From the human T2T-CHM13v2.0 reference genome, Homo sapiens, in NCBI RefSeq assembly GCF_009914755.1, contig NC_060934.1: DNA of 64,000 nucleotides. The stretch is one strand, 5' to 3'. Shown in pieces: positions 22,657 to 29,629 of the stretch (position 1 is the stretch's first letter; every line of letters begins with the position of its first letter). A program made the translations under genes and the position numbers. The notes below the pieces were generated by a model, which saw only the letters and a list, made by a program, of their open reading frames with translations, ran no database searches and had not been told where the DNA came from.

Positions 22657-22708
22657 TGTTGAACAGTCATCGGATCTACAGGACCAGTTGAATCATCTGT
22701 TGAAATAG
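22657..22708 (+). CDS. BORCS7: BORCS7 exon 5 coding part, stop TAG 22706-22708
   Basis: ctag|T GTT GAA CAG...TTG AAA TAG. Joined CDS is 321 nt = 106 aa ending VEQSSDLQDQLNHLLK. Confidence 0.95.
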
Positions 22709-24551
22709 AATGACATGTAAGAGTGCTGTAGGACTCCTTTGCCTAATGCTGAGGAGTAAATACCTTACACAGCTGTCCTCTGGGTTTGGTTTTCTATTTT
22801 CTTCTCCAAAAGTTAAGTTAGAAAAGTTCTGTGTTAGGGCCGGGCGCGGTAGCTCACGCCTGTAATCCCAGCACTTTGGGAGGCCGAGGCGGGTGGATCA
22901 CGAGGTCAGGAGTTCGAGACCAGCCTGGCCAAGATGGTGAAACCCCGTCTCTACTAAAAATACAAAGAATTAGCTGGGCGTGGTGGCGGGCGCCTGTAAT
23001 CCCAGCTACTCGGGAAGCTGAGGCAAGAGAATCGCTTGAACCCAGGAGGTGGAGGTTGCAGTGAGCCAAGATCGCGCCACTGCACTCCAGCCTGGGCGAC
23101 AGAGTGAGATTCCATCTCCAAAAAAAAAAAAAGAAAAAAAAAAGAAAAGTTCTGTGTTGATGTACAGTTTCTCCTAAGAAGAAGCGAGGTGGTTGAATTT
23201 TGGAAGCACTTCTTGAATCGGATTAACCCATGCTCTTATTGAATTTTTTCATCTGCTCTGTTTAGTTTGATATTAAAGCAAAATTAAGAGGTCTTAGTTT
23301 TTCCTATAGAACTTTTAATATGTCAAAAGCTATATTGTCTAAATTTCAGTACTTAAGCAAATACTGAGTAGTGTTTTAAATTCAGAAATAGAGCTTCTAT
23401 TATGAACACATGAGAATGATTTTTTTCTCTTAATCATTATTAAGGAAATATTTTAATTTCATGGTCATATAATGGTGATAAGTAATACCTGATTGTTTCC
23501 TTTTCTGTTCTAGTAACTCAGAGGAGATACGTGTTTTATTTGTGATAGCAAATTCCTAAATGAACATTAGGCAAGTGGTATCATTATCAGGCCAGCTGCA
23601 GCCTCTTGCCTTGACCTGCATTCCTAGAATTTCTTTGTTGCTGTAATTCTTGATTAAGTGACCTTGACTTTCATTTTGTAATTTTGCTAATCATCAGCAA
23701 ATTCACTTGCATGACGTTACTGCCAAATATGAAGGCAGTTGAATTATTATGAGTGATTGTGGCAGAGGTTTGTGCCATGGTGAAAACTTTGATGTTTGTC
23801 TGTGTTCATTGGATCCATCTTTTTAAATGACATTACCATGAGTCTGTTGTCAAACCTAAATATCTTTGTTTGAATTTAAAATGGGACTCTATATTGTTGT
23901 AGTTCAGGTCTTCATTGACTAAGAGATTGAGAGAAATCTGACATAAGAAAATATTGTTTTCACTGCAGGAATAAAGAGGAAGTAACAGTGAATCCAATAT
24001 AGTTCATATTGTTATTGTCCAATCATCAAGTTAACTAAGCATTATCAGATTACGTTTATTTCTCATACATATGGATATTAACTTAAGGTAAAAAAGCTGG
24101 ATGTGAAGGATCTGAAAAGGCATTAATTTATGTACTAATTCTATAAACATGTATTAATAATTGCAGTATTATTAAATACAGATGGACTCAATGTACCTTT
24201 GAAAAGACCACTAATTTAGAAAACAAAGCTAAGTGCAGTCATTACAAGAAGCAAAGAAATACTTAAGTTAGAAAAAAATTAAAATGAAGGGATGGTCTAA
24301 GTTTTCTTCATGCTGGAACAAATGTTAAAGAAGCAGTGATTGCTTACAATGTATGTGATAAAATAATACCTTTCACAATCAAAATTTTAATAGTAAATAT
24401 AAGATAAAATTTATATTAAATAATGAAAACGTATTTGTACTGAATTTAGTCACTAGAGAACATCGTAACAAAATACATGAAACAAAAGTAGCCAGAAATG
24501 TTAGAACAGGTGGAAATGTATACATTATTTGATGGTTTGTTTTTTTATGGA

Positions 24552-24557
24552 AATAAA
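24552..24557 (+). terminator. BORCS7: Candidate BORCS7 polyadenylation signal AATAAA
   Basis: AATAAA near the end of a long AT-rich, largely unique 3'UTR-like stretch (22709 to ~24750). Confidence 0.45.
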
Positions 24558-27500
24558 CAACATACATAGAATTAAATGGTGATCAAAAACATGGAAAAAA
24601 TACTTCACTAAATAACGTCTAAGTTGTAGAGGTTGTGCCGGAAGATAATATTTTTAAAATAACAAATGTTCAAATGCCATAAAAGAAAATTTGTGTGATA
24701 ATACCAAAGCAGTACTATAAGAAAATAAGCATGCTTTAAATCCCTGTATTAGGGATAGAGTGGAAATATTTTTGTTTTTTTTAAGGGGTATATAGTTAGA
24801 ATTTAGAAAGAATGGAAATGGAAATAATAAAACTAAACAAATTAGAAAAAAATAACAAATTAGAAAAAATAAAAAGTATTAAGTAGTTCTTGTAGATTAA
24901 ATGGGTAAAGTGTCAGCTCAGCCAGAAAAGTACAAATTAGTAAATTCGTAATTGAATAGGCAATACATAAAATCAATGAGATTTGAAAAGAGTTATCAGT
25001 TTGCTGCAAAAAATGTGATTAATATATGCCCAGCTCCTTATAAAGATAAAAAATTATGAAACTGACACTTTTAACAGAGAATATTCCAGATTGGTTATGA
25101 GAAATAACCCACAAACTAAGAATAACCAATTAAAATGGCATTTGCTTGTGAAAGCTTTCATGAGACTTTTCCAAACTGTCAAAGAACATATACTCCTGGC
25201 CGGGTGTGGTGGCTCACGCCTGTAATCCCACCACTTTGGGAGGCCGAGGCAGGCGGATCACAGAGTCAGGAGTTCGAGACCAGCCTGGCCAACATGGTGA
25301 AACCCCGTCTCTACTTAAAAAATACAAAAATTAACCAGGCATGGTGGCACATGCCTGTAATCCCAGCTACTCAGGAGGCTGAGACAGGAGAATTGCTTGA
25401 ACCCAGGAGGCAGAGGTTGCAGTGAGCCGAGATCGAGCCACTGCACTCCAGCCTGGGTGGCAGAGCAAGACTCCATCTCAAAAAACAAAACAAAACAAAA
25501 CAAAAAACCCCTATACTCCCAAAATATAGAAAATGATCATAAGACACTAATTCATTTAATGAAGTAAACAGGATTTTCATTTTAAAAATAAAATTATGTA
25601 AGAAAGATGATGCAAGAGGATGTAAGATAATGTAGGTGATTTTTTTATGAGTATAGATGCAAAAATCCGAATAAAATCTTAGAAAACTGAATAGAGAAAT
25701 ATTTTGAATAATTGTTCATGTAACTCCAGAATTTCAAAGTTGATGTAATAGTTACAAAACACATTACATTAATAAGAAATAATAAAATCTTTTGTCACTA
25801 TAATATATACCAAAAAGGCATTTAAAATACACTTTCTATTTCAAAAAAACTAAAAGAATTTTTTAAAAGGGTATGTTTTAAAACCCAACATAATATTTGA
25901 TGAAGAAGAGTCGTATAAAACCCCAGAATATTAGAGCTGTATGGGGCCTTAAAAGTTATTAAATTCTGGCCCCATGTTTTACAGATGAAAAAAACACAGC
26001 CAGGAAGATGAAATGACTTACCCAAGGTCACTGAGCTTGATGGTAGGTCTTTTGACTACTAGTCTGGCTCTATTACCTGTTAGTTTCCTTATGCATAGAA
26101 ACAAGGGTGCCACCTTCATTACTAGTCTTCAACATAATACTAAAGAGCTCTTAGAAAAGGAAAGGATCTTGAAGTAGCTGAATCCAATCCATTTGCCCCT
26201 GCTTCTGCATCTCAGGTGAGCCATCATCCAGTCATTCATCTGCTTCTGCTTCCGATATTTGGGGAATCCTTTACTTAGGAGTGCTGATCCTTTTGGAAAT
26301 CTCCACTTCTTGAAAGATGGTTCTGTGTAATTAACCAAAATCTGCCTTTCTGGATAATCCTGGAATTGTCACTCCAGTAGCTTCCAAGATAGAATGTGTG
26401 ACGGTGTGCACAGGCCTCTGTTAAAGGGTAGGGGAGAAAATTTCTATGTATGTTAGTTTTTTATCTTAAAAAAATTAGCTTTTGTGAGGCTGGGCGTGGT
26501 GGCTCACGCCTGTAATCCCAGCACTTTGGGAGGCCGAGGCGGGCAGATCACGAGGTCTGGAGATTGAGACCGTCCTGGCTAACACAGTGAAACCCCGTCT
26601 CTACTAAAAATACAAAAAATTAGCTGGGCGTGGTGGCGGGCGCCTGTAGTCCCAGCTATTCGGGAGGTGAGGCAGTAGAATGGCATGAACCCGGGAGGCG
26701 GAGCTTGCAGTGAGCTGAGATCCTGCCACTGCACTCCAGCCTGGGTGACAGAGCGAGACTCTGTCTCAAAAAAATAAAAAAGCTTTTGCCAATATTTAAA
26801 ATATGACTTGATGTGAGAGTCTTAATTTCTTCTACGCAGTATACAGATATATAGCATTCCTGTCATTTAGCAGGGGTGATAGTAAAACAAAAAAACAAAA
26901 AACCCCACAAAACCTGTGGTGAGGCACTGACCAATCAGAATGATTGATGGTCACAGTCTGGTCCAAAATTAGCCCCCACACCAGACACCATGGAGGAAAA
27001 GTGAGAGTAACTCAATTTAAGTTGACAGTGGTTTGTTTTATTGCAGTTTATCTGTGTGTGAATAGGTAGATTTAAGGATTGTTGGCCAGGTGTGGTGGCT
27101 CACACCTGGAATCCCAGCACTTTTAGGAGGCAGAGGCAGGCGGATCACTTGAGATCAGGAGTTCGAGACAGCCTGGCCAACATGGTGAAACCCTGTCTCT
27201 ACTAAAAATACAAATTAGCCAGGCATGGTAGTGCATGCCTGTAATTCCAGCTACTTGGGAGGCTGAGGCAGGAGAATCGCTTGAACCGGGGAGGCAGAGG
27301 TTGCAGTGAGCCGAGATTGCGCCATTGCGCTCCAGCTTGGGCAACAAGAGCGAAACTCTGTCTCAAAAAAAAAAAAAAAAAAAAAGGATTGTCAAATGAT
27401 TCTTGTAAGTAAACCATAAATTAAAGATAACAAAACAAGCACAAGAGAAAAATGATACAGCCCTTTCCTTGACCTCTCACTAATCTGCCCTTTTAAGATA

Positions 27501-29281: not shown

Positions 29282-29389
29282 CCTGAGTCGCAGGCCGAGG
29301 AGACAGTGAGTGCGCGCCCTGAGTCGCAGGCCGAGGAGACAGTGAGTGCGCGCCCTGAGTCGCAGGCCGAGGAGACAGTGAGTGCGCGC
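29282..29389 (+). repeat. AS3MT: 36-bp VNTR, 3 perfect copies (AS3MT exon 1 / intron 1 VNTR)
   Basis: CCTGAGTCGCAGGCCGAGGAGACAGTGAGTGCGCGC at 29282, 29318 and 29354. Confidence 0.98.
29305..29305 (+). CDS. AS3MT: AS3MT exon 1 coding nucleotide (A of the split ATG); equivalent donors at 29341 and 29377
   Basis: GAGACA|gtgagt donor; exon 2 begins TG GCT, so splicing assembles ATG GCT GCA CTT (MAAL...). Confidence 0.8.
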
Positions 29390-29588
29390 CCTGGGCGCCC
29401 CGCCCCAGCCCCCAGCCCCTTCCCTGGGCCCCCGCAAGGCGGGAACGCGAGCGCCTCCCCCGAGCTGTGTCTCGAGACCTTTGTCCTCCCCTCACCCCTC
29501 GGCCCGCTGCCTGCCCTTTACTGGCCCCCTCCCTCATGCCCGTCCCTCAGCACCCTCTCCTTTCAACTAACTTTCCCGCTCCCGACAG

Positions 29589-29629
29589 TGGCTGCACTTC
29601 GTGACGCTGAGATACAGAAGGACGTGCAG
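29589..29629 (+). CDS. AS3MT: AS3MT (arsenite methyltransferase) exon 2
   Basis: acag|TG GCT...GTG CAG|gtgag; (M)AALRDAEIQKDVQ. Confidence 0.95.

What the first reader, a model, noticed from the sequence alone, without database searches (positions are those of the whole stretch)
22706..29629. BORCS7-AS3MT read-through splice builds a stop-restart (TAG-A-ATG) bicistronic message with full-length AS3MT in frame
Seen: after the BORCS7 stop (TAG 22706-08) the sequence is A-ATG-ACA-T|gtaaga, with a good 5' splice site at 22717. AS3MT exon 2 starts with TG because its own ATG is split. Joining 22716 to 29589 gives TAG A ATG ACA TTG GCT GCA CTT CGT... = M-T-L-A-A-L-R-D..., an ATG 1 nt after the BORCS7 stop, with A at -3, in frame with all 374 downstream AS3MT codons. 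Known: BORCS7-AS3MT read-through RNAs are annotated and are usually treated as NMD substrates. Inference: this junction could let terminating ribosomes reinitiate and make nearly native AS3MT from the BORCS7 promoter, bypassing the VNTR-containing exon 1 and possibly escaping NMD. The frame match could also be chance (roughly 1 in 3 given the ATG).
Basis: partly seen in the sequence, partly recalled or inferred. Interest (0 to 1): 0.8.

Follow-up and report, generated by a model that had tools for sequence, protein, structure and literature searches.

The report
BORCS7-AS3MT read-through RNA, second ORF intact
An already annotated RNA that joins the BORCS7 and AS3MT genes does carry a complete arsenic-methyltransferase reading frame starting one base after the BORCS7 stop codon, but what the sequence shows and what is known about ribosomes suggest it is rarely translated, so it is probably a curiosity and not a second source of the enzyme.

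Summary
TAG (22706-08), A, ATG (22710-12), ACA, T, then donor gtaaga at 22717. AS3MT exon 2 starts with TG at 29589 behind a cag acceptor. Joining the RefSeq read-through exons gives a 377-codon ORF, Met-Thr-Leu plus AS3MT residues 2-375. The junction is the one in curated NR_037644.1, so the RNA is known. Only the in-frame substitute ATG appears unreported in my searches.

The functional reading is untested and mostly disfavoured:
- The upstream ORF has 106 codons.
- Six AUGs, all with a purine at -3, precede ATG 22710, which argues against leaky scanning.
- No UGGGA core lies within 200 nt upstream, and the local fold is unremarkable (z 0.57 and -0.45).
- Eight exon junctions lie 177 nt or more past the stop, so the NMD rule is met.
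- An in-frame open ATG in an 8-nt spacer arises by chance about 4% of the time (84 of 2029).

Published reporters give second-ORF yields from about 1/1200 to "robust". Mammalian conservation, junction reads, Ribo-seq and proteomics could not be examined. Best reading: an NMD-prone read-through RNA with a fortuitous, weakly used second cistron.

The parts
14071..22708 (+). BORCS7 coding region (5 exons; 106 codons, two tandem ATGs at 14071 and 14074), the upstream cistron of the read-through RNA
   Evidence: ORF at nt 78-398 of the assembled RNA. Exon 1 hits Pfam BORCS7 PF16088, E 1.4e-09. Exon coordinates come from the hub's annotation.
22706..22708 (+). BORCS7 stop codon TAG
   Evidence: Read directly. 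Reading through it in the BORCS7 frame gives only 7 more codons before a TGA, so no fusion protein results.
22710..22712 (+). ATG one base after the stop, with A at -3 and A at +4; the only ATG in exon 5; start of the 377-codon second ORF in the read-through RNA
   Evidence: In unspliced BORCS7 mRNA the same ATG opens a 51-codon ORF, and in the 22716>23514 isoform a 12-codon ORF.
22717..22722 (+). 5' splice site CAT|gtaaga inside the composite last exon of BORCS7
   Evidence: By my own count it matches 7 of 9 positions of the recalled CAG|GTAAGT consensus. It is used by NR_037644.1 and by a second BORCS7 transcript (hub's annotation).
22717..29588 (+). 6872-nt read-through intron. It removes the BORCS7 3'UTR and poly(A) sites, the AS3MT promoter and AS3MT exon 1 with its VNTR.
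   Evidence: Length; contents from the hub's annotation.
29282..29393 (+). 36-bp VNTR (3.1 copies) spanning the end of AS3MT exon 1; bypassed by the read-through splice
   Evidence: Tandem Repeats Finder, 100% matches, score 224. Three identical GAGACA|GTGAGT donors would end the exon at 29305, 29341 or 29377.
29589..29629 (+). AS3MT exon 2, beginning with TG (codon positions 2-3 of the native ATG); acceptor ...cccgacag|TGG
   Evidence: Pyrimidine fraction 0.68 in the 22 nt before the cag.
29589..60470 (+). AS3MT coding exons 2-11, the body of the second cistron (AS3MT residues 2-375)
   Evidence: The second ORF runs to the normal AS3MT stop. Exon 4 hits Methyltransf_31 PF13847, E 2.8e-09.

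Best explanation
This is the known BORCS7-ASMT read-through RNA. The last BORCS7 exon is a composite exon. It is either extended to the BORCS7 poly(A) sites (the main mRNA) or cut at an internal donor 8 nt past the stop codon. When polymerase runs on into AS3MT, that donor is spliced to AS3MT exon 2, removing a 6.9-kb intron that contains the AS3MT promoter and exon 1. The product has a bicistronic layout. BORCS7 is the cap-proximal ORF that gets translated. A complete AS3MT ORF follows, with Met-Thr-Leu in place of Met1. I infer that ribosomes reach this second ORF only rarely, on the order of 1% or less of terminating ribosomes. On that view most copies behave as NMD substrates and contribute little AS3MT compared with the canonical mRNA, whose own start has a strong context (A at -3, G at +4). 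The in-frame ATG is then most likely fortuitous. What is shown: the sequence, the frames, the junction positions, the upstream AUG count, and the absence of a TURBS core and of special structure. What is inferred: the low reinitiation yield, the NMD sensitivity, and the lack of selection on the ATG.
For: The junction and ORFs are confirmed.

Against efficient reinitiation: the upstream ORF has 106 codons, while the review passages report an eIF3 half-length of about 12 codons or retention for up to about 60 codons, and reinitiation efficiency falling with upstream ORF length.

Against leaky scanning: six AUGs precede ATG 22710, all with a purine at -3 and three with G at +4.

Against a TURBS-type element: no UGGGA (nor GGGA or UGGG) occurs in the 200 nt before the stop. 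Folding of -60/+60 and -100/+100 around the AUG gives z 0.57 and -0.45 against 200 shuffles each.

NMD rule: junctions lie 8, 49, 177 ... 1027 nt past the stop, eight of them at 177 nt or more.

Chance: an in-frame open ATG appears in 84 of 2029 mock spacers.

Reporter benchmark: from a bicistronic mRNA in human cells, the upstream protein (SHBLE) was 1197-fold more abundant than the GFP made from the second ORF (PMC11751868, section 2.3). CASQ2 coupling was 82-fold lower than the first ORF (PMC3923131, passages).

Annotation: NCBI lists the locus as noncoding, and Pierce 2012 calls it an NMD candidate.
Against: The stop and the AUG are 1 nt apart. That satisfies the one positional rule known for reinitiation after long ORFs (within about 20 nt), and the review states that the rules for cellular mRNAs are unknown. 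The AUG has A at -3. A preprint reports robust expression of a second ORF separated from the first only by a stop codon, after upstream ORFs spanning roughly 540 to 2000 bp, in transfected HEK, HeLa and neuronal cells. Gould 2014 saw second-ORF expression in 22 of 24 tested human transcripts. BORCS7 and AS3MT expression are correlated and share eQTLs that colocalise with arsenic-metabolism signals, which a productive read-through RNA would help to explain. I had no RNA-seq, Ribo-seq, proteomic or cross-species data, so low usage is an inference and not a measurement.
Confidence: 0.65

Rival explanations
1. Coupled termination-reinitiation. A useful fraction of 40S subunits that terminate at the BORCS7 TAG stay on the RNA, pick up initiator tRNA and start at the AUG 1 nt downstream. 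This makes active AS3MT (two residues longer) under the BORCS7 promoter, and the translating ribosomes strip the downstream exon-junction complexes, protecting the RNA from NMD.
For: The stop-A-AUG geometry, A at -3 and the intact 377-codon ORF. The proximity rule for reinitiation after long ORFs is met, and reinitiation and NMD are described as mutually exclusive fates. Robust stop-codon-separated expression is reported in transfected cells. BORCS7 and AS3MT share eQTLs, and the arsenic-metabolism SNP rs9527 lies in the BORCS7 5'UTR.
Against: The upstream ORF has 106 codons. There is no UGGGA core and no structured element. Quantified reporters give second-ORF yields about 82-fold to 1197-fold lower than the first ORF. 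The configuration has a chance probability of about 4%. No paper found in five searches reports such a product.
Confidence: 0.15
2. Low-level, non-adaptive translation of the second ORF. It contributes negligible enzyme but partly stabilises the read-through RNA against NMD, so that the RNA is detectable and scores in eQTL and TWAS studies.
For: Translation of second ORFs is described as constitutive but weak and common (22 of 24 transcripts). Reinitiation downstream of a premature stop can raise mRNA half-life. The read-through gene is reported in many GWAS and TWAS tables.
Against: Nothing here measures the stability of this RNA. Detection in expression studies may simply reflect ambiguous read assignment among BORCS7, AS3MT and the read-through model.
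Confidence: 0.13
3. ATG 22710 is used as a first AUG on 5'-truncated or alternatively started transcripts that begin within BORCS7 intron 4 or exon 5 and splice to AS3MT exon 2. The protein would then arise by ordinary cap-dependent scanning, not by restart.
For: ATG 22710 is the only ATG in exon 5, so any RNA starting in that exon would present it first.
Against: No such transcript is in the annotation supplied, and no promoter or enhancer element is listed near 22657. I had no CAGE or long-read data.
Confidence: 0.05

Closest known systems
RefSeq read-through (conjoined-gene) transcripts flagged as NMD candidates, such as the loci in Table 1 of PMC5793191
   Same: Same strand and neighbouring genes. 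An upstream donor is spliced to exon 2 of the downstream gene. The upstream ORF ends well before the last junction. This very locus is listed there as noncoding.
   Different: Here the donor lies after the upstream stop instead of before it, so the full BORCS7 protein is encoded. The downstream gene's own ATG is lost because it is split across exons 1 and 2, and an ATG from the upstream exon replaces it in frame.
TURBS-dependent termination-reinitiation of caliciviruses and influenza B segment 7 (review PMC10275272, passages)
   Same: A long upstream ORF, with stop and restart AUG almost touching and out of frame with each other.
   Different: Those systems need a structured upstream element that pairs with 18S rRNA and give 3-20% coupling. 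No UGGGA core or excess structure is present here.
Human cellular coupled translation (CASQ2 and others; Gould 2014, PMC3923131)
   Same: A human mRNA with a second ORF reached after the main ORF terminates.
   Different: Their screen required ORFs overlapping by 4-120 nt, and the coupled cases had runs of AUGs and, for CASQ2, an Asp-rich C-terminus. Here the ORFs do not overlap and there is a single AUG. The BORCS7 C-terminus printed shows no Asp-rich repeat by eye (not analysed).
Stable human bicistronic transcripts that encode two conserved proteins (the SLC35A4 uORF-encoded microprotein case, PMC13303939)
   Same: Two unrelated proteins on one RNA. The authors propose an origin by transcriptional read-through.
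   Different: Those are the predominant transcript form and the first ORF is a uORF-encoded microprotein. Here the read-through is a minor isoform beside two independent genes, and neither BORCS7 nor AS3MT appears in that paper's main text (0 occurrences).

Membership tests
Read-through (conjoined-gene) transcript, NMD candidate | One RNA with exons of two adjacent same-strand genes, joined at canonical GT-AG sites | tested here: met
   Donor CAT|gtaaga at 22717 and acceptor cag|TGG at 29589. The junction is that of NR_037644.1 in the hub's annotation. I saw no read-level evidence.
Read-through (conjoined-gene) transcript, NMD candidate | The first ORF's stop lies more than about 50-55 nt upstream of an exon junction (rule recalled) | tested here: met
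   Junctions lie 8, 49, 177, 328 ... 1027 nt after the stop; eight lie at 177 nt or more.
Read-through (conjoined-gene) transcript, NMD candidate | The RNA rises when UPF1 or SMG1 is inhibited | not testable with these tools
   No expression data were available. Pierce 2012 says only 'candidate'.
TURBS-type termination-reinitiation | Stop and restart codon within about 20 nt of each other | tested here: met
   The spacer is 1 nt; the criterion comes from the review passage.
TURBS-type termination-reinitiation | An upstream structured element with 18S rRNA complementarity (the UGGGA core is recalled, not taken from a call) | tested here: not met
   0 UGGGA, GGGA or UGGG in the 200 nt before the stop. 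Fold z 0.57 and -0.45. Full 18S complementarity was not scanned.
TURBS-type termination-reinitiation | Second-ORF synthesis depends on termination at the upstream stop | not testable with these tools
   Needs a reporter with the stop moved or removed.
uORF-type reinitiation | A short first ORF, so that initiation factors are still bound at termination | tested here: not met
   106 codons, against an eIF3 half-length of about 12 codons or retention for up to about 60 codons.
Leaky-scanning bicistronic mRNA | Few and weak AUGs upstream of the second start | tested here: not met
   Six upstream AUGs, all with a purine at -3 and three with G at +4.
AS3MT (arsenite methyltransferase) coding capacity of the second ORF | An uninterrupted frame through all AS3MT coding exons, with the SAM-methyltransferase domain | tested here: met
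   377 codons ending at the AS3MT stop. Exon 4 hits Methyltransf_31, E 2.8e-09. Activity of the two-residue-longer protein was not tested.

The most novel reading that the evidence does not exclude
The BORCS7-ASMT RNA is a true mammalian two-gene message. Ribosomes finishing BORCS7 restart 1 nt downstream without a viral-type TURBS element and make active AS3MT under BORCS7 promoter control. This spares the RNA from NMD. It would also explain directly why variants in the BORCS7 5' region (for example rs9527) track with arsenic methylation efficiency and why BORCS7 and AS3MT share eQTLs.
Probability: 0.12. Interest if true: 0.7.

Novelty: new member of a known kind. Interest (0 to 1): 0.3.

Why it matters
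AS3MT sets arsenic methylation capacity, and the 10q24.32 locus is a leading GWAS signal for arsenic toxicity, schizophrenia, blood pressure and BMI. Which transcript mediates these signals is unresolved. If the read-through RNA made enzyme, variants acting on the BORCS7 promoter would alter AS3MT dosage directly. It would also be a rare cellular example of restart after a long ORF. If it does not, as I judge more likely, the practical lesson is different: the read-through model shares all AS3MT coding exons except exon 1, and so can confound isoform-level eQTL and TWAS assignment.

Tried and rejected
Conservation across mammals: only the window's own human assembly is held, and no other eukaryotic genome is reachable with these tools, so this was not tested.

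Papers I wanted but which are not held: Li 2016 Nat Med, Koller 2020 EHP and Chernoff 2020.

Literature for a translated read-through product:
- 'BORCS7-ASMT': 16 papers.
- Four older or variant names: 24 papers, 20 listed.
- AS3MT + BORCS7 + readthrough: 1 paper, whose read-through passage concerns another locus.
- AS3MT + BORCS7 + read-through: 0 papers.
- AS3MT with reinitiation, bicistronic, downstream-ORF and similar terms: none of the 25 listed of 2,731 holds AS3MT.
- Passages read in Duarte 2016, PMC8139961, PMC12501019, PMC5378805, PMC9985638 and Washer 2022 say nothing on read-through translation.
- Supplements were not opened.

Rejected mechanisms:
- Stop-codon read-through of the BORCS7 TAG as a route to a fusion protein: the frame closes after 7 codons.
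- Read-through joined to AS3MT exon 4 (the layout with exons 2-3 skipped): only a 9-codon ORF from ATG 22710.
- Special RNA structure at the stop/start: not seen.
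Full report
**1. What is in the sequence**

One search shows ...TTG AAA TAG A ATG ACA T|gtaaga. TAG is at 22706-08, the ATG at 22710-12, and the GT of the donor at 22717-18. One search shows AS3MT exon 1 ending ...GAGACA at 29377 before gtgagt, and exon 2 starting TG GCT GCA at 29589 after ...cccgacag. 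The native AS3MT start codon is therefore split A|TG across intron 1, as the supplied annotation states (coding 29377-29377).

I concatenated the 15 exons of NR_037644.1 by coordinate. The resulting RNA is 2732 nt.
- The BORCS7 ORF occupies nt 78-398: 106 codons, with two tandem ATGs.
- A second ORF starts at nt 400 (window 22710) and runs 377 codons to the normal AS3MT stop.
- The canonical AS3MT mRNA gives 375 codons. The second ORF is thus Met-Thr-Leu plus AS3MT residues 2-375.

Pfam confirms both identities on single exons: BORCS7 PF16088, E 1.4e-09, and Methyltransf_31 PF13847, E 2.8e-09.

**2. Anatomy**

The last BORCS7 exon is a composite exon. In the main mRNA it runs from 22657 to 24745. 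In a second BORCS7 transcript, and in the read-through RNA, it ends at 22716, where the donor CAT|gtaaga sits 8 nt after the stop. From there it is spliced either to 23514 (a 3'UTR intron) or to AS3MT exon 2 at 29589 (annotation; motifs).

The read-through intron is 6872 nt long. It removes:
- the BORCS7 3'UTR and its 3' ends;
- a U6 snRNA pseudogene (Rfam U6, 75.3 bits);
- the AS3MT promoter;
- AS3MT exon 1, with its 36-bp VNTR of 3.1 copies.

The exon-2 acceptor is of moderate quality, with a pyrimidine fraction of 0.68 against 0.82 for the 23514 acceptor. I found no AATAAA or ATTAAA within 45 nt upstream of either annotated BORCS7 3' end. This might mean weak 3' processing that favours run-on transcription, but that is an inference.

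**3. Is it more than chance?**

Only two of the six possible ATG positions in the 8-nt spacer are in frame with exon 2. Using every 8-mer of the BORCS7 3'UTR as a mock spacer, 84 of 2029 (4.1%) have an in-frame, open ATG. That is unusual for one locus. However, NCBI annotates many read-through loci (Table 1 of PMC5793191 lists dozens as "some" examples), so a few such coincidences are expected genome-wide.

**4. Can ribosomes reach the second ORF?**

*Leaky scanning* is very unlikely. Six AUGs precede ATG 22710, all with a purine at -3 and three with G at +4.

*Stop-codon read-through* gives no fusion protein. The BORCS7 frame closes after 7 codons.

*Restart after termination* is the only plausible route on the full-length RNA. 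The review PMC10275272 (passages) gives these points:
- Restart after long ORFs in viruses needs stop and start within about 20 nt. This is met here (1 nt).
- It also needs a structured upstream element that pairs with 18S rRNA, and then yields 3-20%.
- eIF3 stays on elongating ribosomes with a half-length of about 12 codons, or for up to about 60 codons.
- Restart efficiency falls as the first ORF lengthens.
- The rules for cellular mRNAs are unknown.

Here the first ORF has 106 codons. The 200 nt before the stop contain no UGGGA (a core motif that I recall, not one taken from a call), nor GGGA or UGGG. Folding around the AUG is no more stable than shuffled sequence (z 0.57 and -0.45).

Published benchmarks disagree:
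- PMC11751868 (section 2.3): from a bicistronic mRNA in human cells, the upstream protein (SHBLE) was 1197-fold more abundant than the GFP made from the second ORF.
- Gould 2014 (passages): second-ORF expression in 22 of 24 human transcripts, with CASQ2 coupling 82-fold lower than the first ORF.
- A preprint (section read): robust second-ORF expression after a single stop codon, even after long first ORFs, in transfected cells, without a ratio to the first ORF.

Some translation of the second ORF is therefore credible. A large yield is not supported.

**5. NMD**

Exon junctions lie 8, 49, 177, 328 ... 1027 nt after the BORCS7 stop. By the recalled 50-55-nt rule, eight junctions qualify, which matches the RefSeq label "NMD candidate" and Pierce 2012. 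The review notes that restart downstream of a premature stop displaces the NMD triggers. Any RNA copy whose second ORF is translated would thus be shielded. Whether this happens often enough to matter is unknown.

**6. Best explanation and rivals**

Most likely (0.65): an ordinary, NMD-prone read-through RNA whose second cistron is intact by a modest coincidence and is translated at trace level.

Rivals:
- Functional coupled restart that supplies AS3MT from the BORCS7 promoter (0.15).
- Trace translation that mainly stabilises the RNA (0.13).
- Use of ATG 22710 as the first AUG on unannotated 5'-truncated transcripts (0.05).

One result counts against my preferred reading. BORCS7 and AS3MT share eQTLs that colocalise with arsenic-metabolism signals, and rs9527 lies in the BORCS7 5'UTR. 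A productive read-through RNA would explain this neatly. Shared regulatory elements, the authors' own reading, would explain it as well.

**7. What is known and what is new**

The RNA and its junction are curated annotation. In five full-text searches and in passages of the papers opened, I found no statement that the read-through RNA carries an in-frame replacement ATG or that it makes AS3MT. Li 2016, Koller 2020 and Chernoff 2020 could not be read, and no supplements were opened, so the point may be in print there.

The closest known kinds are NMD-candidate conjoined transcripts, viral TURBS restart, the cellular coupled cases of Gould 2014, and stable human bicistronic transcripts. It fits the first. 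It fails a defining feature of the second, and it lies outside the search criteria of the third.

**8. Limits**

No other mammalian genome was available. I had no RNA-seq, Ribo-seq, CAGE or proteomic data. Conservation, abundance and actual translation are all open, and the decisive experiments are listed separately.

Noticed in passing
window 29282-29393: The 36-bp VNTR at the end of AS3MT exon 1 (3.1 perfect copies). Each unit carries an identical GAGACA|GTGAGT donor, which would end the exon at 29305, 29341 or 29377. Any of the three, spliced to exon 2, would rebuild the same ATG with the same upstream context, so copy number changes the number of equivalent donors and the 5'UTR length.
   Followed up: partly
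window 28205-28303 (+): A full-length match to U6 snRNA (Rfam RF00026, 75.3 bits, model positions 1-105 of 105) inside the read-through intron, about 1 kb upstream of AS3MT exon 1. It is annotated as a pseudogene.
   Followed up: no
window 24658-24750: No AATAAA or ATTAAA hexamer lies within 45 nt upstream of either annotated BORCS7 3' end (24703, 24745). The nearest canonical hexamers are at 24552 and 24571. A weak poly(A) signal might favour run-on transcription into AS3MT.
   Followed up: partly
window 32371-32373: An ATG in AS3MT exon 4 opens a 273-codon in-frame ORF (102 codons shorter than the full protein). This would be the expected start for the isoform lacking exons 2-3. Joining 22716 directly to exon 4 gives only a 9-codon ORF from ATG 22710.
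   Followed up: partly
window 22710-22865: In ordinary unspliced BORCS7 mRNA the same ATG 22710 opens a 51-codon downstream ORF, and in the 22716>23514 isoform a 12-codon ORF. A Ribo-seq peak at this ATG would therefore not by itself point to the read-through RNA.
   Followed up: yes
window 14071-14076: BORCS7 begins with two tandem ATGs. The second has the stronger context (A at -3, G at +4), giving 106- and 105-codon versions.
   Followed up: no
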